The notes under the pieces were generated by a model that ran no database searches, had not been told where the DNA came from, and was given only the letters and a program-made list of their open reading frames with translations. DNA of 58,398 nt from a virus (Duplodnaviria; Caudoviricetes), in IMG/VR virus record IMGVR_UViG_3300022928_000003, positions 1 through 58,398 of that record; one strand, 5' to 3'. Numbering within the stretch: position 1 is the stretch's first letter; every line of letters starts with the position of its first letter. A program made the position numbers and the translations under genes. Below, in pieces: positions 20,983 to 41,405 of the stretch.

Positions 20983-21269
20983 TATCTAATCCCTTTAAAC
21001 ATTCCGCCTCTGCCTTTGGCAACACCGCCCATGTTCATCTTCTTAACTTTACCACCGTCCATCATACCAACGGGCATGGACTTGGTTGTGTTTACTACGC
21101 CACCATCTGCTTTTTTTGCTATTTTGCCTAAAACAATTTCTTTTATTCCTGCGGGAAGGTTTTTCATTGGATTAGCTCCTCGATTTGCTTTAACCAAAGT
21201 ACCTTCAGATTTTAAAATATTTTCTGCAAGTTTTTGCATTTTTGAACTCATTTTATTTTTACCAGCCAT
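20982..21269 (-). CDS. Small basic GG-motif protein
   Basis: ADGGVV, MMDGGKV, MNMGGVA. Confidence 0.55.
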   Translation of the reverse strand: MAGKNKMSSKMQKLAENILKSEGTLVKANRGANPMKNLPAGIKEIVLGKIAKKADGGVVNTTKSMPVGMMDGGKVKKMNMGGVAKGRGGMFKGIR

Positions 21270-22753
21270 TAGTAATACTCCATTTTTCTTCTATATCCTG
21301 GTTCAAACTCTTCATCGTCAGGTGTGGATATAAAACCACCTTGTCTGAATCTTAGTATAGCCTGTGTCATTGAATCTGCCAAGTCATCATGATCTCCATG
21401 TGGAAAACTCGCACATTCCTCAACAACTTCCTCTGCAAAATTAGCATCTGGTCTCCATACCATACCACTTTCAAACACAGGTGCGCAAGCATTCATCCTT
21501 GCAAACTTATCAGCACCTTTGCTCGGTGTAAAGGGTGTAACAGGAATACCCATACGTCTTAATTCTTGTGTTAAAGGTGTACCACTTGCTTTTTGCTCTA
21601 TCAATATCATGTCTGGATCATAAGCATCGCTTAATTCATAAGCCTTTTGCTTCAGTTCTGGGAAATCCCATCTGCCCTTCTCTGCATCAAGTAAAATAAT
21701 TGCATCACCCTCACCTTCTACTGGTGTAAATATCCCCCAAGTAGTAATAGCACTAAAGTCAGCACGATCATTTTTACTGAAAGCGGTATCGTATGATTGT
21801 ATGATATATGAGCAGGGAGGTGGTTCAGCATGATCCCAAACATTCCACCATTCCCTTTTTATTATAGCTCCTTCTTCTGCCGTTGGGTTTTGCATATACT
21901 GTGCATTCCACTTGGCTACTGGAATTGACGCTTTTACTCCGTCTAATTCCTCTCGACTCCAATATTCGGGCCATAGTACATTGTTTGTATCTGGAAATAT
22001 TGCAGGAAACTCCACGACTTCCCATCTATCTGCTCCTCCTTCAGCTTGCTTAGATATAACCCTAGCTGTTAAATCTTTAATACCCCATCTAGTCATAACA
22101 ATAATAATTGAACCACCTGGCTGCAATCTTTGTCGAGGACCTGACGTATACCACTCATAAATACCATCAAGTGCAGTAGGGCTTAGTGCATCTTGTTCTG
22201 ATACTGGATCATCAATGATACATAAATCTGCACCACGACCAGCTAACGCACCACCCACACCAACAGCGTAATATTCACCACCACCATTTGTTGACCATCT
22301 ACCAGATGCCTTCGCATCACTTGCTAATTTTATATCAGGAAATATATCCCTGAAGTCATCGCTATCAATTAAGTTCTTGACTTTACGTCCAAAACCTACT
22401 GCAAGTTCTGCCGTGTGTGTCGCTTGTATTATCTTCAGATCAGGTCGTCTGCCCATAAGCCACGCTGGAAACAAGTAACTAGCAAACTCTGATTTAGTAT
22501 GTCTTGGCGGCATATTGACAATCAAACGCTTAATTTTGCCGTCAGCTACTTTTTGCAACTTGTCCGCATATATTTTGTGATGTTTACCCTCAATGAAAGT
22601 GGGCCAAATCTTCTTTACAAACTTTAAATAATTTTCTTGACTTGTTTTCTGCTCTTCTAAAACTTTAAGACGATCAAGAAGAGGAGCCATCTTAGAGATT
22701 TCATCATCACTAAGATATTCTGCAAAATCTGAGGCTTGTAAAACCTGATCCAT
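21269..22753 (-). CDS. terL: Terminase large subunit
   Basis: RLIVNMPPRHTKS (Walker A), IIDDP (Walker B), SYDTA, IEQKASG, HDDLADS nuclease motifs. Confidence 0.92.
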   Translation of the reverse strand: MDQVLQASDFAEYLSDDEISKMAPLLDRLKVLEEQKTSQENYLKFVKKIWPTFIEGKHHKIYADKLQKVADGKIKRLIVNMPPRHTKSEFASYLFPAWLMGRRPDLKIIQATHTAELAVGFGRKVKNLIDSDDFRDIFPDIKLASDAKASGRWSTNGGGEYYAVGVGGALAGRGADLCIIDDPVSEQDALSPTALDGIYEWYTSGPRQRLQPGGSIIIVMTRWGIKDLTARVISKQAEGGADRWEVVEFPAIFPDTNNVLWPEYWSREELDGVKASIPVAKWNAQYMQNPTAEEGAIIKREWWNVWDHAEPPPCSYIIQSYDTAFSKNDRADFSAITTWGIFTPVEGEGDAIILLDAEKGRWDFPELKQKAYELSDAYDPDMILIEQKASGTPLTQELRRMGIPVTPFTPSKGADKFARMNACAPVFESGMVWRPDANFAEEVVEECASFPHGDHDDLADSMTQAILRFRQGGFISTPDDEEFEPGYRRKMEYY

Positions 22754-25284: not shown

Positions 25285-25329
25285 GAAATATCTCCACAAA
25301 AAACTATTTTATGCGAAGATACTATACGA

Positions 25330-25716
25330 TTAATTTATTTTTGACAATAGAAAGCCCATTTCTTTATGGCTTTGAGCTAAAATTTTAGAAACCATGTCAG
25401 AATTTGCAGAAATATCGTCCTTCATTTTCTTCATAAGAGCCTCAATCCTGTCAACATCCCATTTCGTCAATGGCTCTTCATACTTTTTAACCTCATCATG
25501 CAATTTATCCATCTTATCCATGTTTTTACACAAATATTTCGCTGATAAAACTACAGATATCGGAACTGGTTTCGTTCCATGCTCATAATGGTTCCACATC
25601 CTATGGCTCAAACCTAATTTCTTCGCCATGTTTACCTGACTTATTCCTAATTGATTGCGATAATTCAACATTTCATTGTTTTTTACTTTCGCATAGCTGT
25701 TTTCGTTACGTTTCAT
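25330..25716 (-). CDS. XRE-family helix-turn-helix transcriptional regulator
   Basis: YRNQLGISQVNMAKKLGLSHRMWNHYEHGTKPVP. Confidence 0.8.
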   Translation of the reverse strand: MKRNENSYAKVKNNEMLNYRNQLGISQVNMAKKLGLSHRMWNHYEHGTKPVPISVVLSAKYLCKNMDKMDKLHDEVKKYEEPLTKWDVDRIEALMKKMKDDISANSDMVSKILAQSHKEMGFLLSKIN

Positions 25717-25952
25717 TGGCTTGTCTCCTTCAATATTTTATATTTTAATAAATCTTCCGTAAATTCAGCAACAGTTCCAAACCTTACAGGCTTGTAAACC
25801 TTGTCACAAACGTTGGAAGCACATGTCGATAGCAGATCATCTACGTTATCTTTGTCATATCCCATTATTTTACGAAAAACATCAATAACATCATTCGGAT
25901 CGTCAGACTCAAAATCTCTGAAACCTGCGTATTCTAGTACATATCTAGGCAT
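25713..25952 (-). CDS. Hypothetical protein
   Basis: Start taken as MPRYVL after AGGAGG RBS. Confidence 0.55.
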   Translation of the reverse strand: MPRYVLEYAGFRDFESDDPNDVIDVFRKIMGYDKDNVDDLLSTCASNVCDKVYKPVRFGTVAEFTEDLLKYKILKETSQ

Positions 25953-25972
25953 ATTGCCCTCCTTTGACACAA

Positions 25973-26001
25973 GATGTAGCAATGAATGCTAAAAAGCGCA
26001 A
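25973..26001 (-). promoter_or_regulatory. sigma70-like promoter with operator GCATTCATTGC (drives the HTH operon)
   Basis: TTGCGC-17 nt-TACATC; the spacer carries the shared 11-bp motif. Confidence 0.5.
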
Positions 26002-26146
26002 GATTTTTTTTATAAAATTTTTTTTGGAGGTCGTATTTGAAATTGATGGGGGTCGTTTGAGGGGAACACGGTTTAGAAGATTTTTGCCAAAATTTATATA
26101 AATTTGGTGGTATGGTGGGGCTATACCGCCCCGTTTTATTCAGTAA

Positions 26147-26159
26147 AATCAATAACTTA
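26147..26159 (+). promoter_or_regulatory. IHF consensus site
   Basis: AATCAATAACTTA fits WATCAANNNNTTR. Confidence 0.45.
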
Positions 26160-26221
26160 GAACAATTGTTAGATATTGTATATTAACTAACAATTGTTCG
26201 ATGTCATAATAAATTTTAGAC

Positions 26222-26258
26222 AAAAAAATAGACCGTATAAAATTAATTATACGGTCTA
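26222..26258 (-). terminator. Terminator after the amidoligase gene
   Basis: TAGACCGTATAA-loop-TTATACGGTCTA followed by T7. Confidence 0.75.
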
Positions 26259-26268
26259 GATTTAAACC

Positions 26269-27474
26269 TTAATTTCTAAAAGGTTTTAAGTTTGATTTAT
26301 ATTGGTTGTCTAATCCAAGTAATAAATTTGTACCGCCATTGTTAGCGAATACAGCACCGCCAGAGCCACTATTTACTTGTAATGGTACTTCATAGCCGTT
26401 TAGATCATAACGTCCTTGAGAAGAGCTGTAAGCGTGATTATAGTGTTGTTGATTATGAGTGATTAAAATATCACGTCCAAACTGATTAATTAAGTTTGGT
26501 CTTATTTGCTCACTTATCATAGACCTAACACGCTGAGCGGTTTGAATACCGCTAGCATCCATGATCTCTTGGACTGTAGCACCGCCAACACGTCTCATTA
26601 ATGAGTATGCTATTGATTGTCTAGTACGACTAGAGCGCCCAATATAAGACGGTGTATCAATAACGGCTTGCACTTGGTTATGTCTATTAACAATTGAGTG
26701 TCTTTGCATGTTAGATAAAAACATCATCCAAGACCATATTTTATCAATTTCTAAAGTACCGCCATGCGATCTAAATTCTACAGTTTCATAATCATCCCAA
26801 TGATTAAGATTAATAGCTGAGAATTTACCGCCAACTGAGATAACACGTTTTAATTTGTGCCAAGTACACTCAGTATTTTTTATAGTACTTGGCGCTAATG
26901 GTTTTTTGCAAAAATAACCGTTTTTTTGTCTTGCTCTTCTCATAGGCTCAACTGCATAACCACCATCATCAATTCTTGACGGCGCAAGCAAAGAATTAAA
27001 CTGTATAATATTTTTGCTTACTCTGTATCCCATATCTTTAACAATCTCTAAAGGTATAGCATCACCAAAATAATCAGTACCATTGCGACTAGGTAAAGCT
27101 CGTCCATGAATAGCAGTATATTCAACTGATTTATCATGAAAATCATTTGGATCAATTGTTATTGGTCGTCTAGATAAATGAACATGAATGGATGCAGTCC
27201 AATTGACGGTTGCGCCATGATCGTTCAATTGTTCGAGTACTGATTTTAAATAATTATATGATTTTTGAGAATTACTTAAAATTGGTAATCTTGCCTCGCC
27301 GTCAACTCTTGAACCATCATATACATACTCTAGACCTTTTATTTTATTTGAGCCTAGTGAATTGTTATAACGGTTCATTTCAGTATAAGACCTTGTATTA
27401 AATTCAGGTTCTACACCAAAAACAAAATTTTGGTTATCGAATATGTTTTTATTTGTGTTAATTGTATCAAACAT
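26269..27474 (-). CDS. Putative amidoligase (COOH-NH2 ligase) with C-terminal winged-HTH (DUF3489-like) extension
   Basis: FGVEPEF, YDGS, HVHLS, KFSAINL, TVEFRSHGGT motifs; C-terminal SLMRRVGGATVQEIMDASG. Confidence 0.75.
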   Translation of the reverse strand: MFDTINTNKNIFDNQNFVFGVEPEFNTRSYTEMNRYNNSLGSNKIKGLEYVYDGSRVDGEARLPILSNSQKSYNYLKSVLEQLNDHGATVNWTASIHVHLSRRPITIDPNDFHDKSVEYTAIHGRALPSRNGTDYFGDAIPLEIVKDMGYRVSKNIIQFNSLLAPSRIDDGGYAVEPMRRARQKNGYFCKKPLAPSTIKNTECTWHKLKRVISVGGKFSAINLNHWDDYETVEFRSHGGTLEIDKIWSWMMFLSNMQRHSIVNRHNQVQAVIDTPSYIGRSSRTRQSIAYSLMRRVGGATVQEIMDASGIQTAQRVRSMISEQIRPNLINQFGRDILITHNQQHYNHAYSSSQGRYDLNGYEVPLQVNSGSGGAVFANNGGTNLLLGLDNQYKSNLKPFRN

Positions 27475-27541
27475 TTTGTTTATCCTTTTTTAGTTATTGT
27501 TTGGTTTTTAGGCGCATTTTGCCGCCTAAGTTTTAATTAGG

Positions 27542-27570
27542 TATATAAGGTAATGATTACAAGTATACCA
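27542..27570 (-). promoter_or_regulatory. Early promoter with operator GTAATCATTAC
   Basis: -10 TATATA two bases after the motif, as at 28961..28989; degenerate -35. Confidence 0.5.
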
Positions 27571-27717
27571 CCAAAATTAATTTGCTAAGTCATTGTTTTT
27601 ATTGAGAAACTTTTTTTGCTTTACCTCTTGACAATATTATTTAACAAGTTAATTAAATTTTCATTAGGAGGATATAGGGGGGAGGATCTAGAAAATGATT
27701 TGGGCAGGGGGCGAAAT

Positions 27718-27827
27718 CCCCGATCCCCGATCAGTGTCCTGCCCGATCCGAACAATTGTCCGATTGCCTTCCAGAAAAAACCCAGATCCTGCTGGGCTTT
27801 TTCAGGGGCTGGTTATCGAACAATTTA
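27718..27827 (-). repeat. Post-gene module: stop + AATTGTTCG half-site, terminator, palindrome, CCCGATC repeats
   Basis: Half-site 27817, hairpin CCCAG/CTGGG+T6, CGAACAATTGTCCG 27749. Confidence 0.7.
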
Positions 27828-28292
27828 CCTCCATGACCTGCCTCCACGCCTTGTTTGAATAACCCTACCTGCTTCCTTCTCGTAATCGAAGGCTTCAACA
27901 ACTGCGTCAAGAAGTTGTTCGGTATCTAGCTGGAAGTCTTCATACCCCTGCTTGATTGCGTCAAAGTATCTTTTGTTCGGAACAGCCTGACCTGCGTAGT
28001 TCATTATATAAATCATACCTTGAGTCATGCCCATGTACGACAGATCAACATATTCCTTTCTGTAAAGATTTGGGTAACCCTCAAAGATGTCTAAGTTTCT
28101 CTCATCTTGTTCAGATATTTTCCACAACCCCACAGGAACGCTATGCTTCTCTGACGGAACGATACTCGCCACGTTGTTGAATATCAGTTTGTACCCCAGT
28201 AGATTTGTCTTACCTACTGGAACTGCATCAGGCGATCTAGTCGCCATATTCTTTTTGTTAAGGTTTGCACCATAAGCTATGTATATTGCCAT
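27825..28292 (-). CDS. Gamma-glutamylcyclotransferase (AIG2-like) family protein
   Basis: YIAYGANL, V.VGLWKI...DE..LD.FEGYP..Y motifs; adjacent to the amidoligase. Confidence 0.85.
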   Translation of the reverse strand: MAIYIAYGANLNKKNMATRSPDAVPVGKTNLLGYKLIFNNVASIVPSEKHSVPVGLWKISEQDERNLDIFEGYPNLYRKEYVDLSYMGMTQGMIYIMNYAGQAVPNKRYFDAIKQGYEDFQLDTEQLLDAVVEAFDYEKEAGRVIQTRRGGRSWR

Positions 28293-28322
28293 TTGTCTCT
28301 CCTTTGGCTGATTAATATATAT

Positions 28323-28351
28323 AATATATAGTAATGATTGCATGTTGTCAA
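28323..28351 (-). promoter_or_regulatory. sigma70 early promoter with operator GCAATCATTAC
   Basis: TTGACA-17 nt-TATATT. Confidence 0.75.
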
Positions 28352-28458
28352 GTAGTAAAAGTATAAAAACCTACAGCAACATTATTATAACCAGTTGTTA
28401 TCTAATTTCATGCTTTGCTGCCAATGCGTACTGTTCCTGGCTGCGCACAGGAAGGAAA

Positions 28459-28576
28459 CCGAACAATTGTTCACCTGCAGCCAGGAGGAAGGGGGGGGGT
28501 GGACAATTGTTCGAGCTGGACGCAAAAAAAACAGGAGCCGAAGCTCCCGTTTCCCGATCCGATCCCGAACAATTTA
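28459..28576 (-). repeat. Post-gene module: stop + half-site, terminator, two palindromes around a G/C run
   Basis: Half-site 28566; hairpin ACGGGAGC-TTCG-GCTCCTGT+T run; sites at 28501 and 28460. Confidence 0.75.
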
Positions 28577-28927
28577 TGCTGCAGTAATCTTCCTTCTGTC
28601 GATCATATCCCATTTAGCAACGATTTCTTCGCCTAAGATATAAACATACATATTAACAACCTTTTCAGGGTCTGAAATGTCTGTTGTTAGTTTACCAAAG
28701 TTAAATTCTTCATAGTCTTTGATAATGCCAATAACATTAAATGCCTCTTCTCCCAGCCATTTCTTAGCTTTGTATGTGCCAATTATGTAATAGTCTGTAT
28801 TAAAAGCGTTGTGGTGTACGTCTGTCCAGTCGTCATTGTCTGGTGTGTTTTCTTTTAACCAGTCTTGAAAGTATTCTTCTACTTCCTGATATTTGAATGT
28901 GTTCTTGTCTATGTCTGTAAATTGCAT
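28574..28927 (-). CDS. Early hypothetical protein
   Basis: HH.AFNTDYYIIGTYKAKKWL, EKVVNMYVYI.GE; own promoter and AAGGAG RBS. Confidence 0.7.
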   Translation of the reverse strand: MQFTDIDKNTFKYQEVEEYFQDWLKENTPDNDDWTDVHHNAFNTDYYIIGTYKAKKWLGEEAFNVIGIIKDYEEFNFGKLTTDISDPEKVVNMYVYILGEEIVAKWDMIDRRKITAA

Positions 28928-28960
28928 TTGTTTCTCCTTTGGTTTTGTTTAATTAATATT

Positions 28961-28989
28961 AATATAGTGTAATGATTGCAACATGTCAA
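28961..28989 (-). promoter_or_regulatory. sigma70 early promoter with operator GCAATCATTAC
   Basis: TTGACA-17 nt-TATATT. Confidence 0.75.
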
Positions 28990-29144
28990 CCCTTAAATAA
29001 AACTTTTTCAATGATTACGTCATCATATCCTTTAGCTATCCATTCATCTGCGTGTTGCTTTGCTCGTGAATAGTCTTTGTAGTAATCATCTGTACCACCA
29101 ACCCAAACTATCCATCTCCAGCTCTGTTTGTATTCCTCTGTCAT
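28986..29144 (-). CDS. 52-aa early protein (MTEEYKQSWRWIVWVGG...KGYDDVIIEK)
   Basis: Read manually; AGGAGG RBS; below the ORF-track size cut-off. Confidence 0.65.
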   Translation of the reverse strand: MTEEYKQSWRWIVWVGGTDDYYKDYSRAKQHADEWIAKGYDDVIIEKVLFKG

Positions 29145-29165
29145 TTTGACCTCCTGCTGTTAACC

Positions 29166-29283
29166 CCGAACAATTGTTCACCTGTGCGTGACCTGCTGGG
29201 GGGGGGCTGCTTCTCGAACAATTGTTCGCCCTGCTGCCAGAAAAAACAGGATCAGGTTTCCCCGATCCCGTTCCGAACAATTA
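29166..29283 (-). repeat. Post-gene module homologous to 28459..28576
   Basis: Half-site 29274; hairpin CGGGATCGGG/CCTGATCCTG+T6; palindromes at 29215 and 29167 around a G9 run. Confidence 0.75.
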
Positions 29284-29646
29284 GGCTGTTACTAAATTGT
29301 TCGTTGATTTGCCAGTTTCGTGAAGTCTGTGCTGCCATTCAATAACTTCGTCATTGACCAATGTTACAGCTCTTTCGCTGTGTCCACCAACATTCCACAT
29401 CATTATCTGACTAACTCTCTTACCCTCTGCTCCTAAGTAATTAAGTCCGTTCTTATAATTATATATGGTTGCTATTGTGCCATCTTCAAACTTGATAGCC
29501 CATTGAGCATCTACTTTGTTATCAGACTCCTCAGACCATTCAAATCTTGTTGGCTCTCCGAAAACTTCTACCAGCTCCTGATAAGTTGCCCCAACATTAC
29601 CCTGAAGATGTGTTCCATAAGTTGTATTTGTTTTTTTAAATTTCAT
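29281..29646 (-). CDS. Early hypothetical protein
   Basis: TY.ELVEVFGEP...KVD..W...ATIYNYK...WNVGG; start MKFKK. Confidence 0.7.
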   Translation of the reverse strand: MKFKKTNTTYGTHLQGNVGATYQELVEVFGEPTRFEWSEESDNKVDAQWAIKFEDGTIATIYNYKNGLNYLGAEGKRVSQIMMWNVGGHSERAVTLVNDEVIEWQHRLHETGKSTNNLVTA

Positions 29647-29681
29647 TGGCTTAGTTCCTTGTGTTTGTTTAACTTGATATA

Positions 29682-29710
29682 TATATAGCAATGATTGCCA
29701 CATGTGTCAA
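29682..29710 (-). promoter_or_regulatory. sigma70 early promoter with operator GCAATCATTGC
   Basis: TTGACA-17 nt-TATATA. Confidence 0.75.
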
Positions 29711-29743
29711 CAGATAAAATAATTTTTTTTTATTTTTATTTAC

Positions 29744-29776
29744 TTGACAGGATTAGCAACAGTTACTATATATAAT
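29744..29776 (+). promoter_or_regulatory. Divergent sigma70 promoter with operator variant GCAACAGTTAC
   Basis: TTGACA-17 nt-TATATA(TAAT). Confidence 0.7.
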
Positions 29777-29778
29777 AC

Positions 29779-29854
29779 ATCAAGCATTTAAATATCCTTT
29801 GTTTAATTGTAAAAGTAAAAAGAGCAGGTTTTGGTTTTCCTGCTCTTTTTTTTT
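29779..29854 (+). ncRNA. Candidate ~75-nt small RNA
   Basis: Strong promoter, no ORF, intrinsic terminator GAGCAGG/CCTGCTC+T9; 5' part complementary to early-gene SD/AUG regions. Confidence 0.5.
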
Positions 29855-30240
29855 GCGCAGCCTCCAGGGAACCTGCCCGAACAATTGTTCATGCGCAGCA
29901 GGAACGCCTGGAGCTGCAGGTGAAGGTTTCCGAACAATTGTTCCAGCAAGCAGGTCAGGCAGCCAGGCGAAACTCCGATCCTTCCAGGCTGCAGGGCTTC
30001 TTTTTCCGAACAATTGTTCACGCAGGAGGCTGTCCAGCCAGGTAGATCCCGATAACGCTGCTGGATCCAGGGATAACCTGCTGCCGTTCCGAACAATTGT
30101 ACGATCCCCGCTGCTGGAGAAGCCCGATCCCGTTCCGATTCAGGGGGGGGTGACCTTCCTGAAGCCGAACAATTCTCCCGATTACGCCCAAATCCAGCCC
30201 CGATCACCCCGATCCCGCTGCGAGTCCGAACAATTCTTCG
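29855..30240. repeat. GC-rich array of six CGAACAATT(GTTC) sites with CCWGG/GCWGC/CCGATC-rich spacers
   Basis: Sites at 29878, 29931, 30007, 30090, 30166, 30227. Confidence 0.8.
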
Positions 30241-30274
30241 GTCTCCGTGCCTACACCCTGTCTAAGTAAATATG

Positions 30275-30802
30275 CTAGTTTTTGGGTTTTACGCTACTTT
30301 GTTCTATCAAGTCTGGGTCTTTATGGGATTTGTTCGCTATTTTCATGCGTTTCTGCGCAATGTCTTGAAATTCCTGTAGTTTTGACAATATTTCCTCCCT
30401 TGTCATGCTATCTGTTCGTTCATGTAGCACATGAGCCTTGTTTACAAGCAGTCCAGTAGCTTTTAAACGCAGTTCCTCAGCTCTGATAGCCTCACCAAAC
30501 TTCCCGCTCTCCCACGCCTCGTTACGAATCTTCAACAAATCCCGCACCGACTTATCAATTGTGACCCCGAAGCGACTACGGGCTTCCTCACGCATTTCCT
30601 GATATCTTTCCTGCACGACTGGGTTACGCAACAACCTCACAGCATCGACTCCAGGGTTTGCGTATCCCGCTGCTCTAGCAGCCGATGTCTGCGTCATATC
30701 CTTGTGCATAAAGTTATTCAGAAAATCTTGCTGTTTGTCAGTCAATCTTTTCCATCCAGCTAATCGCTGTTCCTTCGTTAAATTCTCAGCTACTTTTGGC
30801 AT
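30275..30802 (-). CDS. terS: Terminase small subunit
   Basis: LTDKQQDF...TQTSAARAAGYA....AVRLLRNPVV HTH pattern. Confidence 0.8.
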   Translation of the reverse strand: MPKVAENLTKEQRLAGWKRLTDKQQDFLNNFMHKDMTQTSAARAAGYANPGVDAVRLLRNPVVQERYQEMREEARSRFGVTIDKSVRDLLKIRNEAWESGKFGEAIRAEELRLKATGLLVNKAHVLHERTDSMTREEILSKLQEFQDIAQKRMKIANKSHKDPDLIEQSSVKPKN

Positions 30803-31071: not shown

Positions 31072-31371
31072 TCACTCATAAAGCACCACAATTTTGGGGT
31101 CATCTGTCTGTTTATAGAACGTACCATTTAAGGTACAAGAGTAGCCCAAATACTCCATCATTTCGGCATAGTTCCGATAACATTCAGGGCATGAAGTTAA
31201 TTCATAAGAGCAATTCATATGATGCAAAACCGATGCGTTTAATTTTTGGGATATACCTTTTTCTGTAGCGCAGCCTAGACAAATTGTTCGGTTATTCATC
31301 ACCAGCTCCATTCCGATAATAATTTTTTCTTTACACTGCGAACAATTCTTCTGTTTTTTATTAGCCATCAT
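31072..31371 (-). CDS. Cys-rich (zinc-finger-like) hypothetical protein
   Basis: CxxC motifs (CSQC, CLGC, CPEC). Confidence 0.55.
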   Translation of the reverse strand: MMANKKQKNCSQCKEKIIIGMELVMNNRTICLGCATEKGISQKLNASVLHHMNCSYELTSCPECYRNYAEMMEYLGYSCTLNGTFYKQTDDPKIVVLYE

Positions 31372-31598
31372 ACGCCTCCTATGCAACTAGCCATAATTTT
31401 GTGATCTATTGGCTCTTCGCCAAAATTATCAAATATAGCGCCTTCAATGAGCAATTCGCTTTTAACTATATCGGCACGACATTGATTCATAGTCGCATAT
31501 TGCACTTGGCTTTGGTGAATGATACACTTCTGTTCACCGTCATCATGGTGACTAACATCTGCCCATACGACACATATTAATACGAACATTTTAACCAT
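31368..31598 (-). CDS. Hypothetical protein
   Basis: Coupled ORF with MFVLIC start region. Confidence 0.5.
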   Translation of the reverse strand: MVKMFVLICVVWADVSHHDDGEQKCIIHQSQVQYATMNQCRADIVKSELLIEGAIFDNFGEEPIDHKIMASCIGGV

Positions 31599-31701
31599 CG
31601 CTCTTATCTTCTTCTTTACAACGATCACATTGATCTTTTGGATAAGGTGGTTCTTCTGCCCAAAATATTTCGTTACAATCTATACATTCATACTCGCCCA
31701 T
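31591..31701 (-). CDS. 36-aa zinc-ribbon peptide
   Basis: MGEYECIDC...QCDRC; GGAGG RBS; read manually. Confidence 0.5.
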   Translation of the reverse strand: MGEYECIDCNEIFWAEEPPYPKDQCDRCKEEDKSDG

Positions 31702-31827
31702 TTATTCCTCCTTAATTTCCCGAACAATTCTTCGTTTTGTTCGCTGGCGCTCTTTAGCCTTAGCAGATTTTTTGAGAGATTTTTCCCATGATCTGCTAGT
31801 GCTATGAATTTTTGCTCGCTTTACCAT
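31702..31827 (-). CDS. 41-aa basic peptide
   Basis: Read manually; stop abuts the next ATG. Confidence 0.4.
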   Translation of the reverse strand: MVKRAKIHSTSRSWEKSLKKSAKAKERQRTKRRIVREIKEE

Positions 31828-31920
31828 TTTTTTATTTTGTACAAAGCCCGAACAATTTTATCTATAAAGGTAATTTTGTACGGAGTGGCTTGTTGAATAT
31901 GTATTTTTATAAATTTTTCA

Positions 31921-32331
31921 TTAAGCAATTTGTCGCTCCTCATCTCTTGTTGTTGGGTTCCACTTGTGTTGAATTTCATCGATTTCAGATTGACTAACAC
32001 CATATGAACGTAGCGCTTTAGCCATGACCCGATCCGCAGTATCTGTCCATACAATCGCATGTAACATTGCCCAAATCCATGCACCAATTTCTTTCTCCTT
32101 TGTTGTGTTATTACGAGATTGATTACCGCCAAGTATATGCCCGATTTCATGTAAGGCAGACACATAATACCCCGTATTCTTAGTCGGTCTAATGGTTATA
32201 TGTCGCCTAGATGGAATAGCAGAATACCTAGGATTAGTTTCTGTTAGCGATTGATAACTTACAGTTATGTTCTCTAATGCGGCTAACTCTTGGATATGTA
32301 ATGCCATATCTATTCTTTTAACTAATATCAT
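31921..32331 (-). CDS. Zincin-like HExxH protein (ImmA/IrrE-like metallopeptidase fold)
   Basis: SALHEIGH...EKEIGAW. Confidence 0.6.
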   Translation of the reverse strand: MILVKRIDMALHIQELAALENITVSYQSLTETNPRYSAIPSRRHITIRPTKNTGYYVSALHEIGHILGGNQSRNNTTKEKEIGAWIWAMLHAIVWTDTADRVMAKALRSYGVSQSEIDEIQHKWNPTTRDEERQIA

Positions 32332-32516
32332 GGTTGTAACCTCTGAAAATTAAGTTCTTGTTGAAATTCATTCAACAAATCTTTTGCATGTTCTACATAC
32401 ATATCAACACCAAACTTGATCTTGACTTGCTTTAATACTTGCTCGTTTGTGTAGTCCTGCAACTGCTCACCTACGAACAATTCTACTTCAAGTAGTTTGT
32501 CAGATAGTCTACTCAT
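32328..32516 (-). CDS. Hypothetical protein
   Basis: Coupled ORF. Confidence 0.5.
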   Translation of the reverse strand: MSRLSDKLLEVELFVGEQLQDYTNEQVLKQVKIKFGVDMYVEHAKDLLNEFQQELNFQRLQP

Positions 32517-32754
32517 AATAATCACCATTACTTATGTCAAACTCATGTCTTATTTTCCACATAGCAGTATTCATGTCTCGTATGTCAGATAAATAAATAT
32601 CTTCCATGTCTTGAATGTTTCCTAAGACAGTTACTAAAGATTGATGAGCTAATTTAATAGCTTCTTTTTGTTCAGAAGACAAAGCCTTCAATCCATTCTT
32701 TCTGTTGATTTTAATTTTTTCTTGTTCTAATTCCCATTCTGTTTTTTTAGTCAT
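32509..32754 (-). CDS. Hypothetical protein
   Basis: AAGGAAGG RBS; IYLSDIR motif. Confidence 0.55.
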   Translation of the reverse strand: MTKKTEWELEQEKIKINRKNGLKALSSEQKEAIKLAHQSLVTVLGNIQDMEDIYLSDIRDMNTAMWKIRHEFDISNGDYYE

Positions 32755-32818
32755 CTTACTTTCCTTCCTTTGCTAGTTAAGATAGTTCTCTATAGTTACT
32801 ATAGTATTCAATACCATG

Positions 32819-33934
32819 TCAAGCATCTTTTTTATTTAATACATAATCATGGACTATTTTGCCTAATTCAGCATTACCAACCTTTTGTTGCTCAATCCAA
32901 ATACGTTTAAGAACATCGCCTTTTTTATTTTTTAACACTCTCCAATGCCCTCGTCTCCAATGTTCCCGCTTTGGTGATCCTTGCCCCGTGAACATGCGAG
33001 AATAAACCCGTTTGCCCCTAGGCTTTGGTAAATTAATTGTAACGACTTTATATTCGTTTTTAGGCACTTTACGACCAAAGGCTATATGATCTATCTTTTT
33101 AGGCGGAACAACCGTCTCTGTGGCGATTAAATCGTAGTTTAACAACCCAAGTAATGCGATCATAAACCTCGCATCGCCTTCCATAACATTATAAGACACT
33201 TCCATAAATTGTCTCATTTCTGATTTATTCCAACCATAATCAAATTTTTCTTGGCTTATCATCCAGTGCATAGATGCAGTTTGTGTTGTAGTCACTCGTT
33301 GTCTAATTTGATCTAAATAGTATTTATCTTTTTTAGTTCCATTGTTCATATATTCTCCAACGTACCAACTGCCAAGATATGCAGATGTAGATTGCCATGA
33401 TGCCATGTTCCAATCTTTATCGCTCATAGGCTCTTCATTGTGTGCTGAGGCAGAAAATCTATCAAACGGTTTTTCGTTATCAATAGTAAATCCGATCTGC
33501 GGAGAGACCACATAACTTTTATTATCGGGTTCGTATTTAGTATATAAGGCATATATAAAATCATTATTATGTTTCATAATATGATAGCCAACGGGCATAA
33601 TTTGTTCATTTATTTCATAAGTTTTGCCATTTGATTCATGGATTTTCTTTAATAGTTCTTGACGATAAACTTCATCCCACTCAATCCATAAAGAATTAAA
33701 TGGCGGTATACCTCGCTCCAACATATTAAAAAGTATTTCGGGTTTTGACATGCTTGCTTGTACTGCATGCTCAATAAGACCTTTGCTTAATACAAATTTT
33801 TGAGCAGTAACAATTTCAGTTTGTATATTGCGTCTCATGCCCTCTGCATATTTACCGCCTTGCCATCCAAGTATATTTCTTTTGGCATCCCCAAGAGCGG
33901 TAATTAGTTCGTTTGCTAAAATTGGTTTGTCCAT
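32819..33934 (-). CDS. Conserved phage protein with C-terminal PKREHWRRGHWR motif
   Basis: 371-aa ORF with own promoter and AAGGAG RBS. Confidence 0.65.
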   Translation of the reverse strand: MDKPILANELITALGDAKRNILGWQGGKYAEGMRRNIQTEIVTAQKFVLSKGLIEHAVQASMSKPEILFNMLERGIPPFNSLWIEWDEVYRQELLKKIHESNGKTYEINEQIMPVGYHIMKHNNDFIYALYTKYEPDNKSYVVSPQIGFTIDNEKPFDRFSASAHNEEPMSDKDWNMASWQSTSAYLGSWYVGEYMNNGTKKDKYYLDQIRQRVTTTQTASMHWMISQEKFDYGWNKSEMRQFMEVSYNVMEGDARFMIALLGLLNYDLIATETVVPPKKIDHIAFGRKVPKNEYKVVTINLPKPRGKRVYSRMFTGQGSPKREHWRRGHWRVLKNKKGDVLKRIWIEQQKVGNAELGKIVHDYVLNKKDA

Positions 33935-33965
33935 AATTATCTCCTTACGATAGACCTATATAATC

Positions 33966-33994
33966 TATATATGTAATGATAACTACATTGTCAA
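33966..33994 (-). promoter_or_regulatory. sigma70 promoter with operator variant GTTATCATTAC
   Basis: TTGACA-17 nt-TATATA. Confidence 0.7.
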
Positions 33995-34001
33995 TGGTAA
34001 A

Positions 34002-34643
34002 TTATTCTTTTTTAGTTTTCCAAAAATATTCGTCAGTATCGCCTAGCCTTGTGTTGTTACCGTTTTCAACTTGGTACTCAACTGTGCTAACTTTAAAATC
34101 GGGAATTTTAGGCTTTTCAGGAGTTAGGCTATTATCATAGATTCTCATTCTATTGTTCGGATATAAACAATATTGTCCATTATTCAACTGCAACAAATTA
34201 AATGATTTATGTTCTTCAGGTATTTCACTGGTGCTGTAGTCGATTATGTCAGGTTGGTTATGATAATTGTCGAGTGTGCATATATATGTGCCTTTTACGA
34301 TACCAAAACTTCTTGTCAGGACTTCAAAATCCATACTTCCGATGAATTGTTTATGTATAGCGGTAACATTATAATCCATACAATTCCAAAACTGTAAATT
34401 AGGTAAATCCATATCAAGTTTAGGCGTAACTGGTTTTGATACAAATGCAGATATTGGTAGCTTATCAAACATAGCTCCATATTCAGGTAAGTATGTTTCA
34501 AAGTAAAAAGCTCGACCCGCTATAGACTTAGCTGTAATCCATATGCCTTTAACAAACTCTCCATGTCCATCTTGTAAATCTCTGAGGTATTCTTTTCTAA
34601 CCCAAATTTGTTCTGCTGGTAAATTGCATATCAGCTCTGGCAT
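34002..34643 (-). CDS. Conserved marine-phage hypothetical protein
   Basis: NLP...VRKEYL.D...GHGEF, LPISAF, LYPNNR motifs. Confidence 0.65.
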   Translation of the reverse strand: MPELICNLPAEQIWVRKEYLRDLQDGHGEFVKGIWITAKSIAGRAFYFETYLPEYGAMFDKLPISAFVSKPVTPKLDMDLPNLQFWNCMDYNVTAIHKQFIGSMDFEVLTRSFGIVKGTYICTLDNYHNQPDIIDYSTSEIPEEHKSFNLLQLNNGQYCLYPNNRMRIYDNSLTPEKPKIPDFKVSTVEYQVENGNNTRLGDTDEYFWKTKKE

Positions 34644-34936
34644 TACATGCTCTCATCATCAATGCTGCTAACAGGAGAATAATATGATCTGTCAGGAACT
34701 TTTGATACTTTACCGTATAATTGTTCGGTTTTTGCCCTGGGATCATCTTCAAATTTTTCATTCATTTCTAGTTCTTCAGGTGTCATTTTACTGTTTCTTT
34801 TTTGCAAATCTTTAAAAACTTTTTTAATTTCAGCATTACCAGCTTGTCTTTCATAATTGCAATTTACGCAAAACTTAGCTTTTTCATAACGCCCTATTTT
34901 CATTTTAACACCGCAGTTAATACATTTTTGCATCAT
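34643..34936 (-). CDS. Zinc-finger-containing hypothetical protein
   Basis: CINC...CVNC, FEDDPRA. Confidence 0.5.
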   Translation of the reverse strand: MMQKCINCGVKMKIGRYEKAKFCVNCNYERQAGNAEIKKVFKDLQKRNSKMTPEELEMNEKFEDDPRAKTEQLYGKVSKVPDRSYYSPVSSIDDESM

Positions 34937-35111
34937 CTTCCCCACCTGCTTTAAAGTAACTTTCATCTGGAACGCATACCCAGCAATGCCAATTCCATCC
35001 TCCATCAATAGAATACGAAGCTCCAGACTTGCCACAAATCGAACAATTATTCGGTTTTTGTTTTGTTTGCACAACTGGTTGCCAAGTTCTTCTTCGACTT
35101 TGTTCACTCAT
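34917..35111 (-). CDS. Small Cys-motif protein
   Basis: CSICG...HCWVC. Confidence 0.5.
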   Translation of the reverse strand: MSEQSRRRTWQPVVQTKQKPNNCSICGKSGASYSIDGGWNWHCWVCVPDESYFKAGGEDDAKMY

Positions 35112-35946
35112 TATCTTTCCTCCATTTTTCGTACAAAGCATTCATTGGCACATCTCTTTTAAGATACGGGTAAACCCGAACATTTTGACATTTCAATAAA
35201 TCCTTCAGCTTTTTTTTATCTCCAAATGTTAGAAAATATTTTAACTTTCTGCTACCTTTTTCAAATAAATATCCTTTATTAATAAAACTTTGTTTTTGTT
35301 CTTGGCTTGTAACGCCCAGTTTATTGGCGTATTTGTGTATTAACTTTGGATCAACACGCTTGCCATCTGGTCTAATTAGATAATTAACTGGAGATGTAAA
35401 TCCATAAAAATGCCAGTTCGTAGCCTGATATAATGTTCCGATCTCTCCCGCTTCAGGATCAGAATAAGCAATAACAAAGTTATACCCTTTCTTAATTAAA
35501 TGTTTCTTAGCTTGACCAATCATCCAACTACCTGAATGGGGGTGAGCATGACTGGCGCAAGCTCCTCTGACTAATACAATACCTAAATGTTTGTTATGAT
35601 CTCCGAACAATTCTGACAAAGCTCCTGTTCCAGCAGTCAAACCAAAACACATAACACCAACTAAATCATCATCACAGAACATACCTAGACTAAACTTTGT
35701 GGTTCCCATAGTACCCAGCCACTCATATTTTAGTATAAAATTTTGAGCCATTTTAAATGGTATTTCGTGCATTACAGCGTTTTTTATGCTTGATCTTGGT
35801 CTATTGTCATCTAAACTTTTTCGCAACTGGTATTGAAAACAAACTTCATCAAACTTCTTACCCCTGTATCCAACTGACCTGTTAGCCATTTTGTAACCTG
35901 TACGACTTTTCCACAAGTTTACATGATTAAACAAATCAAACTGCAT
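35104..35946 (-). CDS. Mom-family DNA adenine-modification enzyme (GNAT fold)
   Basis: A..FI..YE...LVGVMCFG...LVRGAC...IAYSDP..GE.GTLYQATNW.F.G pattern. Confidence 0.75.
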   Translation of the reverse strand: MQFDLFNHVNLWKSRTGYKMANRSVGYRGKKFDEVCFQYQLRKSLDDNRPRSSIKNAVMHEIPFKMAQNFILKYEWLGTMGTTKFSLGMFCDDDLVGVMCFGLTAGTGALSELFGDHNKHLGIVLVRGACASHAHPHSGSWMIGQAKKHLIKKGYNFVIAYSDPEAGEIGTLYQATNWHFYGFTSPVNYLIRPDGKRVDPKLIHKYANKLGVTSQEQKQSFINKGYLFEKGSRKLKYFLTFGDKKKLKDLLKCQNVRVYPYLKRDVPMNALYEKWRKDNE

Positions 35947-38126: not shown

Positions 38127-38200
38127 TATTATATCCTTACTTCGTTGGCTGAAGTTATAGGCGACATTTGTTTGTTTCTCTACCTTTCATGTCGCCTATT

Positions 38201-41298: not shown

Positions 41299-41324
41299 AA
41301 TTCCCTCATTGCTAGATGATGAAA

Positions 41325-41392
41325 GGGTAGCTTTACGGCACTCGTGCTACCCAAACGAGTTCTAGCAGACGAAGGTCAGTCTTGCCGCTAGA
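41325..41392 (-). ncRNA. Structured cis-regulatory RNA: hairpin plus H-type pseudoknot in the helicase leader
   Basis: ACUCGU/ACGAGU and GGGUAGC/GCUACCC interleaved stems; UCUAGC/GCUAGA hairpin. Confidence 0.6.
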
Positions 41393-41405
41393 TATTCGCA
41401 AAAAC

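What the first reader, a model, noticed from the sequence alone, without database searches (positions are those of the whole stretch)
29744..29854. Candidate phage small RNA antisense to the SD+AUG of its own early genes
Seen: a plus-strand TTGACA-17-TATATA promoter, back-to-back with the 29710 promoter, leads into ~75 nt with no ORF that ends in a GAGCAGG/CCTGCTC-T9 terminator. Its 5' part GCAUUU-AAAUA-UCCUUUG-UUUAAUU (29784-29808) is complementary, with identical 5-nt spacing, to CAAAGGA-gaaac-AAAUGC of the 28927 gene and CAAAGGA-gagac-AAAUG of the 28292 gene. It also partly matches AAAGGAUA of the amidoligase leader and the UUAAACAAA leaders at 28927 and 29646. Inference: a trans-acting sRNA that dampens early-gene (or host) translation and is co-regulated by the same operator.
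Basis: partly seen in the sequence, partly recalled or inferred. Interest (0 to 1): 0.75.

Follow-up and report, generated by a model that had tools for sequence, protein, structure and literature searches.

The report
Candidate phage small antisense RNA gene
On the otherwise gene-free strand of a marine phage genome lies a small promoter-to-terminator unit that probably makes a ~75-base structured RNA able to cover the ribosome-binding sites of the phage's own accessory genes, though nobody has yet seen the RNA.

Summary
Plus-strand TTGACA-17-TATATA (29744-29772), predicted start 29779, no credible ORF, and the terminator GAGCAGG-N10-CCTGCTC-T9 ending at 29854 are all there.

The window is a complete 58.4-kb phage genome with every gene on the minus strand. 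The unit recurs once per genome, always antisense to TerS, in 24 of 81 related loci searched. It is an accessory module: 21 of 63 TerS loci with enough downstream sequence have it, and the 42 without it include six that were read and show no terminator hairpin.

The plus-strand RNA folds as hairpin 1, carrying UCCU in its loop, plus a terminator. The core TCCTTTGTT is invariant in 12 of 12 distinct sequences. Five base pairs show compensatory changes (0 of 500 shuffles), and G·U pairs favour the plus strand. The minus-strand mini-ORF is not conserved.

It ranks first in 8 of 9 genomes, but the binding energy is not beyond chance. Expression could not be shown, because only unstranded contigs were available.

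Verdict: a credible, unvalidated new member of the phage trans-antisense RNA kind.

The parts
29720..29743 (+). T-rich stretch upstream of the -35 box (a possible UP element), shared as spacer with the divergent minus-strand promoter
   Evidence: Sequence. Relatives without the unit carry a similar T-rich stretch in front of their first cassette promoter. Its function is inferred.
29744..29772 (+). Sigma-70-type promoter: TTGACA, 17-nt spacer (with the box GCAACAGTTAC at 29756-29766), TATATA
   Evidence: It is an inverted, diverged copy of the cassette promoters (I1 71% and I3 80% complementary). Among 16 distinct variants, the -10 box and the 17-nt spacing are kept in all 16; the -35 box is TTGACA in 11 and TTGTAA in 5.
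29779..29854 (+). Predicted small RNA of about 72-76 nt. The start is inferred as the 7th base after the -10 box; the end lies within the U9 run.
   Evidence: Fold of -22 kcal/mol, z -4.7. Covariance model hits of 78-103 bits in the window and 24 loci, one per genome, all antisense to TerS. Neither the 5' end nor the 3' end has been mapped.
29784..29810 (+). Hairpin 1: an A/U-rich stem with UCCUU in the apical loop
   Evidence: It is part of the minimum-energy fold in all 16 variants on the plus strand. The mirror hairpin is not part of the minus-strand fold. z is -1.2 to -2.6 on the plus strand and +0.1 to +0.8 on the minus strand in 9 variants. Four pairs show changes on both sides.
29795..29803 (+). 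Invariant core TCCTTTGTT, the anti-Shine-Dalgarno 'seed' complementary to AACAAAGGA
   Evidence: Invariant in 12 of 12 distinct sequences, while the 5' arm of the hairpin is replaced in one clade.
29811..29816 (+). A-rich single-stranded linker, which continues into the A-tract of the terminator stem
   Evidence: Any protein binding here is speculation.
29817..29854 (+). Intrinsic terminator: 12-bp stem (29817-29828 with 29839-29850), 10-nt loop and U-run. It also reads as a weaker terminator on the minus strand.
   Evidence: It is 87-100% identical to five diverged relatives, compared with 82-90% for the TerS gene and 61-87% for the adjacent repeats. It shows one compensatory A-U to G-C change and two independent G·U changes that would be C·A mismatches on the minus strand. 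It is absent from six relatives without the unit that were read.
29682..29710 (-). Divergent cassette promoter (TTGACA-17-TATATA) of the 29646 gene, back to back with the RNA promoter
27466..27488 (-). Best predicted target: the amidoligase start region AAAGGATAAACAAAATGTTTGAT (SD through codon 3)
   Evidence: 19 base pairs over 23 nt with the RNA's first 22 nt (my reading). Net cofold energy is -13.0, rank 1 of 76 start regions. It also ranks first in 7 of 8 relatives. The energy alone is not beyond chance.
28924..28954 (-). Second predicted target: the leader and start of the 28927 gene (AATTAAACAAA..CAAAGGA..AAATGC)
   Evidence: -11.8, rank 2 of 76. Its homologous cassette ranks first or second in several relatives.
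29740..29787 (-). Minus-strand SD plus 15-codon mini-ORF; considered and rejected as a gene
   Evidence: The peptide length and frame are not conserved across clades. It sits directly behind the terminator with no promoter of its own. Its conserved residues are simply the reverse complement of the plus-strand promoter.

Best explanation
This is a gene for a small trans-acting antisense RNA carried by the phage.

Proposed mechanism:
1. Host sigma-70 RNA polymerase starts at about 29779, from a promoter that is an inverted copy of the phage's own accessory-gene ('moron' cassette) promoters.
2. Transcription stops at the hairpin-U9 terminator, giving an RNA of about 75 nt.
3. The RNA folds into a weak A/U-rich hairpin that presents UCCU(U) in its loop, an A-rich linker and the terminator hairpin.
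4. The invariant core UCCUUUGUU first contacts the exposed Shine-Dalgarno region (A)ACAAAGGA. That motif is shared by the leaders of the cassette island between the TerS and portal/TerL genes.
5. Pairing then spreads, ribosome binding is blocked and translation falls.

The most consistent partner is the amidoligase mRNA. In this genome the pairing would run from the SD through the AUG to codon 3. The 28927-type cassette leader comes second.

The minus strand of the RNA gene looks like a duplicated cassette or amidoligase start region (SD, ATG, first codons) placed antisense to a promoter. That would explain how the regulator arose.

What is shown and what is inferred:
- Shown: the sequence anatomy, conservation, a structure specific to the plus strand, the invariant core, complementarity, and co-occurrence with one amidoligase type.
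- Inferred: transcription, the RNA ends, pairing in vivo, repression, and timing.

My odds: about 0.7 that a structured plus-strand RNA is made and kept by selection; about 0.45-0.5 that it acts by pairing with phage start regions; about 0.35 that the amidoligase mRNA is the main target.
For: Anatomy and conservation
- All elements are at the stated coordinates.
- The genome is complete and every called gene lies on the minus strand, so a consensus plus-strand promoter is exceptional.
- The covariance model gives 25 hits of 78-103 bits (window plus 24 of 81 loci). There is one per genome, all antisense to TerS, and the next best hit is 26 bits.
- Promoter and terminator occur together or not at all. 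21 of 63 loci with at least 800 nt downstream of TerS have the unit and 42 lack it. Six loci without it that were read show no hairpin plus T-run.

Structure
- 94.1% of 271 cells are paired, and 5 pairs change on both sides, against 0.7 +/- 0.7 in shuffles (0 of 500). Slid controls give 0-3.
- RNAalifold finds both hairpins independently.
- Paired cells: 255 of 271 on the plus strand against 230 of 271 on the minus strand. There are 26 G·U cells against 1 A·C cell.
- Hairpin 1 has z -1.2 to -2.6 on the plus strand and +0.1 to +0.8 on the minus strand in 9 variants.
- TCCTTTGTT is invariant in 12 of 12 sequences.
- The terminator is more conserved than the TerS coding DNA.

Coding potential
- The mini-ORF is not conserved.
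- The plus-strand TTG ORF 29799..30269 has no SD, and T8/T9 length variation in the terminator run shifts its frame.

Targets
- The amidoligase start region ranks 1 of 76 in the window (-13.0). None of 149 random minus-strand windows goes below -9.3.
- It ranks first in L027, L002, L014 and L036 and second in L016.
- In L007, L008 and L058 the cognate values are -17.8, -14.6 and -8.4, against a best other start region of -8.0, -9.4 and -7.5.
- With 86 shuffled 5' domains, the amidoligase start region ranks first once and never reaches -13.0.
- Six of 9 distinct amidoligase leaders in genomes with the RNA carry a perfect AACAAAGGA; the other three have one mismatch.
- One clade shows a matched change: GUUUA to GUUUG in the RNA, UAAAC to CAAAC in the leader. 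Another shows a matched 1-nt deletion.

Co-occurrence
- 12 of 13 assessable loci with the RNA have the amidoligase type that is at least 77% identical to the window's.
- All 30 loci without the RNA that have an amidoligase hit carry a 27-59% type.
- Of the 21 divergent-type leaders read (20 from loci without the RNA, plus L037), only one (L078) contains AACAAAGGA.
Against: - No transcript has been shown. All four RNA-library runs are unstranded contigs. One 631-nt contig (X1, 29725-30357) runs across the terminator and begins 54 nt upstream of the predicted start. It is therefore not the discrete small RNA, and it may be DNA or minus-strand read-through.
- The predicted binding energy is not exceptional. 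24 of 86 shuffled 5' domains reach -13.0 or better with some start region, and the mean best value is -11.9.
- Contiguous 9-12-nt complementarities are frequent in this AT-rich genome.
- Cognate RNA-leader pairs are barely better than non-cognate pairs (mean -13.2 against -11.7). The co-evolution signal is weak and could reflect gene conversion among paralogous leaders.
- Co-occurrence with the amidoligase type is confounded by physical linkage. The GGCT gene beside it follows the same pattern.
- L037 has the RNA but the other amidoligase type, whose GGAG leader lacks the motif.
- All compensatory changes in hairpin 1 come from one lineage (L089/L016). The effective number of sequences is small: 1.57 in the model.
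- Five of 16 variants have a weaker -35 box (TTGTAA).
- The RNA would be made from the same promoter type as its targets, so a temporal logic is not obvious.
Confidence: 0.48

Rival explanations
1. The unit works at the DNA/transcription level only. The hairpin is a bidirectional terminator that stops read-through from the TerS operon into the cassette island. The divergent promoter only modulates, or competes with, the neighbouring 29710 promoter. The short RNA is then a by-product with no trans target.
For: - The hairpin also folds on the minus strand (-16 to -18 kcal/mol) and is followed there by CUUUUUACUUUU.
- It is the only intrinsic terminator between TerS and the first cassette.
- The terminator is the most conserved part of the unit.
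- The two -35 boxes lie 34 nt apart, so polymerase footprints would overlap (the overlap is inferred).
- A contig from an RNA library crosses the site.
Against: - It does not explain the invariant TCCTTTGTT core, or why hairpin 1 keeps its fold through a stem replacement.
- G·U pairs make both hairpins better on the plus strand. In two clades the minus-strand terminator carries a C·A mismatch, at -13.3 and -11.7 against about -17.4 to -20.1 elsewhere.
- 42 of 63 relatives do without any such terminator unit (six of them read).
- In one clade about 54 nt are inserted between the two promoters, so the overlap is not conserved.
Confidence: 0.2
2. The RNA is real, but its main targets are host mRNAs (an SD-proximal AAGGA with an A-rich flank). 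It would be a host-takeover sRNA, and the match to phage leaders is incidental to their shared SD context.
For: - The seed is essentially an anti-SD plus an A/U-rich flank.
- Complementarity within the phage genome is not beyond chance in energy terms.
- L037 keeps the RNA without the matching amidoligase leader.
- The review passages seen list phage sRNAs that act on host transcripts.
Against: - The host is unknown. TerS has no relative in 185,579 species genomes, and the 8 pattern matches in bacterial genomes are not homologues. No host target can therefore be named.
- The RNA's complement is plainly a member of the phage's own leader family, including the ATG and first codons.
Confidence: 0.13
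3. This is a non-functional relic of cassette shuffling: an inverted promoter copy next to a fragment of a leader and a terminator. It would persist only through linkage in a recombining island.
For: - The promoter is an inverted paralogue of the cassette promoters.
- Cassettes do occur in the inverted orientation in relatives L066 and L078, where the antisense promoter drives a protein gene.
- The unit is dispensable in two thirds of relatives.
- One variant tolerates a ~57-nt insertion between the -10 box and hairpin 1 (L023).
Against: - The -10 box, spacing, seed and terminator persist across clades in which the flanking non-coding DNA has fallen to 33-75% identity.
- There are compensatory and strand-specific changes.
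- An inverted cassette would place an SD, not an anti-SD, on the transcribed strand.
Confidence: 0.12
4. The functional element lies on the minus strand: an SD plus ATG that starts a translated mini-gene or leader peptide.
For: CAAAGGA lies 8-9 nt before an ATG, and the ATG is retained by homology in all six clades.
Against: - The peptide runs to 15, 11, 5 or about 47 codons, with frame shifts and loss of the stop.
- SD-ATG spacing collapses to about 1 nt in one clade (L291/L036).
- No promoter lies between the terminator and the SD.
- The mirror hairpin is not part of the minus-strand minimum-energy fold, and 26 G·U cells become C·A mismatches there.
Confidence: 0.03

Closest known systems
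c4 antisense RNA of phages P1 and P7
   Same: A phage-encoded small RNA that acts in trans on a phage mRNA. Its complementary sequences are presented in loops and cover the ribosome-binding region, blocking translation (review PMC12197685, passages in section 9 seen).
   Different: - c4 controls an antirepressor in temperate phages and determines immunity.
- As I recall, not from a call, c4 is processed from the same operon as its target and has an Rfam family.
- Here the RNA has its own promoter and terminator, lies 2.3 kb from the best target, and sits in a phage with no lysogeny genes noted.
- No Rfam family matched at or near threshold.
sar RNA of phage P22 and OOP RNA of lambda
   Same: Short (68/69 nt and 77 nt) phage RNAs with their own promoter and terminator that pair with a phage mRNA (table and section 4 of PMC12197685, seen).
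   Different: As I recall, both are transcribed from the DNA opposite their target and so are fully complementary to it. The review table lists OOP as cis and sar as trans. Here no gene lies opposite the RNA. The complementarity is partial and is directed at paralogous leaders elsewhere in the genome.
Trans-encoded bacterial sRNAs whose C/U-rich loop motifs occlude Shine-Dalgarno sequences (recalled examples: RNAIII and RsaE of Staphylococcus)
   Same: A small independent transcript with an intrinsic terminator and U-tail, a conserved seed complementary to SD regions, and several mRNA targets that share a motif.
   Different: Those are chromosomal. Chaperone dependence, expression and targets here are untested. 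This resemblance is recalled, not tested.
Moron cassettes and the promoter-stem-loop (PeSL) cassettes of T4-type phages (recalled from the literature; not searched here)
   Same: The surroundings are an array of self-contained promoter-gene-terminator units flanked by repeats, in a hyperplastic region, with promoters of one family.
   Different: The unit studied here carries no protein gene, and its transcript is antisense to the cassette leader motif.

Membership tests
Sigma-70-type promoter | -35 TTGACA, -10 TATAAT-like, spacing 17 +/- 1 | tested here: met
   TTGACA-17-TATATA at 29744-29772. The spacing and the -10 box are kept in 16 of 16 variants.
Sigma-70-type promoter | Initiates transcription | not testable with these tools
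   The RNA-library data were unstranded contigs without ends.
Intrinsic (Rho-independent) terminator | G+C-containing stem-loop followed directly by a U-run | tested here: met
   A 12-bp stem including GAGCAGG/CCTGCTC, a 10-nt loop and U9. One compensatory change and two G·U changes keep the stem.
Trans-encoding base-pairing small RNA | Own promoter and terminator, no conserved ORF | tested here: met
Trans-encoding base-pairing small RNA | Conserved structure with a conserved accessible seed | tested here: met
   TCCTTTGTT is invariant in 12 of 12 sequences, and UCCU lies in the loop in all 16 folds.
Trans-encoding base-pairing small RNA | Detected as a discrete transcript | tested here: inconclusive
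   The region is present in contigs from RNA libraries, but these are unstranded, and one contig crosses the terminator.
Trans-encoding base-pairing small RNA | Regulates a target through pairing | not testable with these tools
   Prediction only.
Any curated RNA family (Rfam 15), including phage antisense RNAs | Covariance-model score at or above the family's gathering threshold | tested here: not met
   The best scores are 16.8-23.8 bits, against thresholds of 40-86. The overlapping matches cover mainly the terminator half of the RNA.
cis-antisense RNA (sar/OOP type) | Transcribed opposite its target gene | tested here: not met
   No conserved gene lies opposite 29779-29854.
Leader peptide or mini-gene on the minus strand | ORF conserved in frame and length, with a promoter upstream | tested here: not met

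The most novel reading that the evidence does not exclude
The RNA is a post-transcriptional governor of a whole array of mobile accessory-gene cassettes. It would have been born from a duplicated cassette or amidoligase start region placed antisense to a cassette promoter. It would then recognise the leader motif (A)ACAAAGGA that cassettes carry with them. Any cassette that joins the island comes automatically under its control, and the RNA travels with the amidoligase/GGCT block as a co-adapted module in abundant uncultured marine phages.
Probability: 0.2. Interest if true: 0.75.

Novelty: new member of a known kind. Interest (0 to 1): 0.55.

Why it matters
Regulatory RNAs of phages are known mostly from temperate coliphages and a few transcriptome studies. 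The relatives of this phage are environmental metagenome contigs, and its closest cultured relatives by TerL (about 60% identity) are pelagiphages. None of these has had RNA regulators described in the text I could search.

If real, this would be a compact example, readable from sequence alone, of how an antisense regulator arises from a copy of its target's start region. It would also show how a phage limits translation of host-promoter-driven accessory genes (amidoligase, gamma-glutamyl cyclotransferase).

It also gives a defined, cheap test. The parts are a 75-nt RNA, a 9-nt seed and two leaders, and they can be assayed in E. coli without the unknown host.

Tried and rejected
Searches that found nothing
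- blastn of 28900-30300 against 50,697 phage records gave no match.
- Rfam gave nothing near threshold.
- The terminator pattern in bacterial and archaeal genomes gave 8 matches in unrelated taxa. None was recognised by the model at the matched site; the best hit elsewhere in those loci was 18.4 bits.
- TerS has no relative in genome contigs, so there is no clue to the host.
- The amidoligase-anchored scan added no new RNA variants. All 8 loci with at least 2.3 kb upstream of the gene hold the unit, but they are mostly contigs already seen.

Searches that were too loose
It added only a few copies of variants already known.

RNA evidence
- Of 11 runs listed, 4 were laid, and all are Logan contigs.
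- They give no strand, no ends and no expression level.
- In X1, 26 of 30 bins have depth, so DNA carry-over or genome-wide transcription cannot be told apart.
- The gap at 29629-29724 in X1 is not evidence of anything.

Target prediction
- RNAduplex energies were inflated by long internal loops. I replaced them with cofold net energies.
Smaller versions replaced them.
- Cognate against non-cognate RNA-leader energies showed no clear co-evolution.

Rejected readings
- The 156-aa plus-strand TTG ORF (29799..30269) and the 134-aa minus-strand ORF in the GC-rich repeats are rejected as genes. They have no SD and lie in repeat sequence, and T8/T9 length variation shifts the frame of the first.
- The plus-strand TTGACA at 27628 has a poor -10 box (TAATTA) and was not pursued.

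Other
- Literature: searches were read as listings and abstract starts only. In PMC9599517, six terms (promoter, amidoligase, cyclotransferase, small RNA, intergenic, terminator) gave 0 occurrences in the main text. Its supplements could not be seen and might hold annotations.
Full report
**Context**

The window is a complete 58,398-bp genome held as a single contig. All long ORFs and all 76 genes I called lie on the minus strand. Pfam and PHROGs identify these genes:
- small terminase, 30802..30275;
- large terminase, 22753..21269;
- an amidoligase, 27474..26269;
- a gamma-glutamyl cyclotransferase (GGCT), 28292..27825.

The large terminase is about 60% identical to those of Pelagibacter phages HTVC027P and HTVC023P and of two uncultured phages. 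No phage record matches the region at the DNA level.

Between TerS and the amidoligase lies an island of small self-contained cassettes. Each has:
- a near-consensus minus-strand promoter, TTGACA-17-TATAT(T/A), with a shared spacer box (G)CAATCATT(A/G)C;
- a leader of the type ..TTAAACAAA..CAAAGGAG..ATG;
- a small ORF;
- a GC-rich stretch with CGAACAATTGTTCG palindromes.

**The observation**

- TTGACA at 29744-29749, a 17-nt spacer, and TATATA at 29767-29772;
- a predicted start at A29779, the 7th base after the -10 box (inferred);
- GCATTT-AAATA-TCCTTTG-TTTAATT at 29784-29808;
- GAGCAGG at 29822-29828, a 10-nt loop, CCTGCTC at 29839-29845, and T9 at 29846-29854.

The divergent 29710 promoter sits 34 nt away. 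The generic scan missed the promoter and the terminator only because of its own rules (T required at -10 position 6; loop of at most 8). A direct scan finds just two TTGACA-N16-18-TA[TA][AT][AT][TA] sites on the plus strand of the whole genome. The plus-strand promoter is an inverted, diverged copy of the cassette promoters (I1 71% and I3 80% complementary).

**Relatives**

A TerS-based scan of IMG/VR found 187 relatives, of which 80 loci were kept. blastn and pattern scans recovered the unit in 42 places among the 317 loci held at that point, collapsing to 16 distinct sequences in about six clades.

A covariance model built from 12 distinct sequences was run over the window and 81 loci (590 kb). 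It gave 25 hits of 78-103 bits, one per genome, always on the strand opposite TerS. The next best hit was 26 bits.

Of the 63 TerS loci with at least 800 nt of downstream sequence, 21 carry the unit and 42 do not. Presence does not follow TerS identity: it is present at 91-100% and absent at 83-95%. In six loci without it that I read, the GC-rich repeats run straight into the T-rich region and the first cassette promoter, with no hairpin plus T-run. Promoter, RNA body and terminator therefore behave as one accessory module. This argues against the hairpin being simply the TerS terminator.

**Which strand, and is it structured?**

The 76-nt plus-strand RNA folds at -22 kcal/mol (z -4.7, 0 of 200 shuffles). 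It forms hairpin 1 with UCCUU in the loop, an A-rich linker and a 12-bp terminator stem. The minus-strand transcript of the same DNA scores only z -1.5 and forms the terminator alone.

In all 16 variants, the plus-strand minimum-energy fold has hairpin 1 with UCCU in the loop, followed by the terminator. The mirror hairpin is not part of the minus-strand fold.

On the 12-sequence alignment:
- 94.1% of 271 cells pair.
- Five pairs change on both sides, against 0.7 +/- 0.7 in shuffles (0 of 500); slid controls give 0-3.
- RNAalifold predicts both hairpins on its own.
- Read on the minus strand, the same pairs drop from 255 to 230 of 271.
- There are 26 G·U cells against 1 A·C cell.

Hairpin 1 has z -1.2 to -2.6 on the plus strand and +0.1 to +0.8 on the minus strand in nine variants.

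Caveats:
- The four compensatory pairs in hairpin 1 all come from one lineage, in which the whole 5' arm and the distal 3' arm were replaced.
- The set is shallow, with an effective sequence number of 1.57.
- The hairpin is weak, at -4.7 to -8.5 kcal/mol.

**What is constrained**

TCCTTTGTT (29795-29803) is invariant in 12 of 12 sequences. Identity to five diverged relatives, by segment:

| Segment | Identity |
|---|---|
| Terminator hairpin and T-run | 87-100% |
| TerS coding DNA | 82-90% |
| Adjacent GC-rich repeats | 61-87% |
| AT-rich spacer | 33-91% |
| Linker and hairpin 1 | 52-97% |

Hairpin 1 drops to 52-70% identity in two clades yet keeps its fold and its core. The -10 box and the 17-nt spacing are kept in 16 of 16 variants. 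The -35 box is TTGACA in 11 and TTGTAA in 5.

**No coding reading survives**

The minus-strand SD-ATG mini-ORF changes across clades:
- MLDVLYIVTVANPVK in the window's clade;
- an 11-aa peptide after a frame shift in a second clade;
- MLLYI in a third;
- a 47-aa ORF with the stop lost, and the SD about 1 nt from the ATG, in a fourth.

Its conserved residues are the reverse complement of the plus-strand promoter, and it has no promoter of its own behind the terminator. The plus-strand TTG ORF 29799..30269 has no SD, and T8/T9 variation in the terminator run shifts its frame.

**Targets**

The minus strand of the RNA gene, ACAATTAAACAAAGGATATTTAAATGCTTGAT, belongs to the island's leader family. 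It resembles both of the following:
- the 28927 leader, AATTAAACAAA-ACC-AAAGGAGAAACAAATGC;
- the amidoligase start region, ACAATAACTAAAAAAGGATAAACAAAATGTTTGAT, including the first codons (ATG CTT GAT against ATG TTT GAT).

I scored each candidate by net cofold energy, which charges for unfolding both partners:
- In the window, the amidoligase start region ranks 1 of 76 (-13.0) and the 28927 start region ranks second (-11.8). None of 149 random minus-strand windows falls below -9.3.
- Each relative's own RNA against its own start regions puts the amidoligase first in L027 (1 of 13), L002 (1 of 12), L014 (1 of 14) and L036 (1 of 12), and second in L016 (2 of 17).
- In L007, L008 and L058 the gene is cut by the contig end. 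There the cognate values of -17.8, -14.6 and -8.4 beat the best other start region at -8.0, -9.4 and -7.5.
- Six of the nine distinct amidoligase leaders in genomes with the RNA carry a perfect AACAAAGGA. Three, including the window's, have one mismatch.
- One clade shows a matched U-A to C-G change between RNA and leader. Another shows a matched 1-nt deletion.

**Results that weaken the target call**

- With 86 shuffled 5' domains, the amidoligase ranks first once and never reaches -13.0. However, 24 of the 86 shuffles reach -13.0 or better with some other start region. The energy itself is therefore unremarkable; only the consistency of the partner and of the site counts.
- Contiguous 9-12-nt matches abound in this genome.
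- Cognate pairs average -13.2 against -11.7 for non-cognate pairs.
- Matched changes could come from gene conversion among paralogous leaders.

**Co-occurrence**

- Twelve of 13 assessable loci with the RNA carry the amidoligase type that is at least 77% identical to the window's. L037 is the exception, at 34%.
- All 30 loci without the RNA that have an amidoligase hit carry a 27-59% type.
- Of the 21 divergent-type leaders read (20 from loci without the RNA, plus L037), most use GGAG or similar, and only L078 has AACAAAGGA.
- The GGCT gene follows the same split, so physical linkage is a sufficient alternative explanation.

**Expression**

Eleven runs share words with the region. The four RNA-library runs I laid are stored as contigs only. 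The region is present in them, but without strand, ends or level. One 631-nt contig (29725-30357) crosses the terminator and begins upstream of the predicted start, so it is not the small RNA. This neither supports nor refutes transcription.

**Comparison with what is known**

No Rfam family comes near its threshold. The nearest functional analogues are:
- the c4 RNA of P1 and P7, a loop-presented trans antisense to a ribosome-binding region;
- the short sar (68/69 nt) and OOP (77 nt) RNAs.

These comparisons rest on the review PMC12197685, of which I saw the abstract and passages in sections 4, 9 and 15. This unit differs in three ways: it has its own promoter and terminator, no gene lies opposite it, and it addresses a family of cassette leaders in a phage with no lysogeny genes noted. 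I found no description of RNA regulators for this phage group. That statement rests on:
- the listings;
- six terms that were absent from the main text of PMC9599517. Its supplements were not visible.

**Verdict**

A selectively maintained plus-strand small-RNA gene with an anti-SD seed is the best reading (about 0.7 for the RNA being real, about 0.48 for the full mechanism), with the amidoligase mRNA as the leading candidate target. It is a new, unvalidated member of a known kind of phage regulator.

Noticed in passing
window 26159-30240 (also 12026, 14843, 31339-51078): The 14-bp palindrome CGAACAATTGTTCG occurs 23 times with up to 2 mismatches, against 0.17 expected. Thirteen of these lie in the GC-rich stretches that flank each cassette between TerS and the genes downstream of the amidoligase. 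Relatives carry the same arrays together with ATCGGG-type repeats. They could be binding or recombination sites that mark cassette boundaries, or be related to packaging, since they begin right after terS.
   Followed up: partly
window 33994..33966, 29710..29682, 28989..28961, 28351..28323 (minus strand): Four exact TTGACA-17-TATAT(T/A) promoters share a spacer box next to the -10 hexamer: (G)CAATCATT(A/G)C in the three island promoters, TATCATTAC at 33994. The amidoligase promoter region (27570..27541) keeps the box but has no -35 consensus. This may be a common regulator site.
   Followed up: partly
window 28520-28545 and 29247-29264 (minus strand): Inside the GC-rich stretches, each cassette appears to end in its own minus-strand intrinsic terminator. 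Examples are GGGAGC-TTCG-GCTCC followed by T8 (my reading) and CGGGGAAACCTGATCCTG-TTTTTT. This gives a promoter-gene-terminator 'moron' architecture.
   Followed up: partly
L066 about 781 nt and L078 about 918 nt downstream of TerS: In two relatives without the RNA, an antisense cassette promoter back to back with a sense promoter is followed by an SD and an ATG, apparently a protein gene on the opposite strand. Cassettes can therefore insert in either orientation.
   Followed up: no
L023 5893-5950 (same contig as L088): One variant has a ~57-nt insertion between the -10 box and hairpin 1. It contains its own small palindromes (CAAAGT-CGA-ACTTTG and GGGAG..CTCCC). The RNA there would be about 130 nt long.
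   Followed up: no
window 27507-27530: The amidoligase 5' UTR holds a hairpin (TTAGGCG-N8-CGCCTAA) whose 3' arm and following A-rich tract (CGCCTAAAAACC) recur in most relatives read. On the plus strand it reads as a terminator-like site.
   Followed up: no
window 21269-30802: The small and large terminase genes are about 7.5 kb apart. Between them lie the cassette island, the amidoligase and GGCT genes, and an 848-aa protein with no Pfam or PHROG match.
   Followed up: no
L001-L080: The amidoligase and GGCT genes occur in at least two deeply diverged types (at least 77% against 27-59% identity for the amidoligase; at least 84% against 44-72% for GGCT). The types assort independently of TerS identity, which indicates recombination of the island as blocks.
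   Followed up: partly
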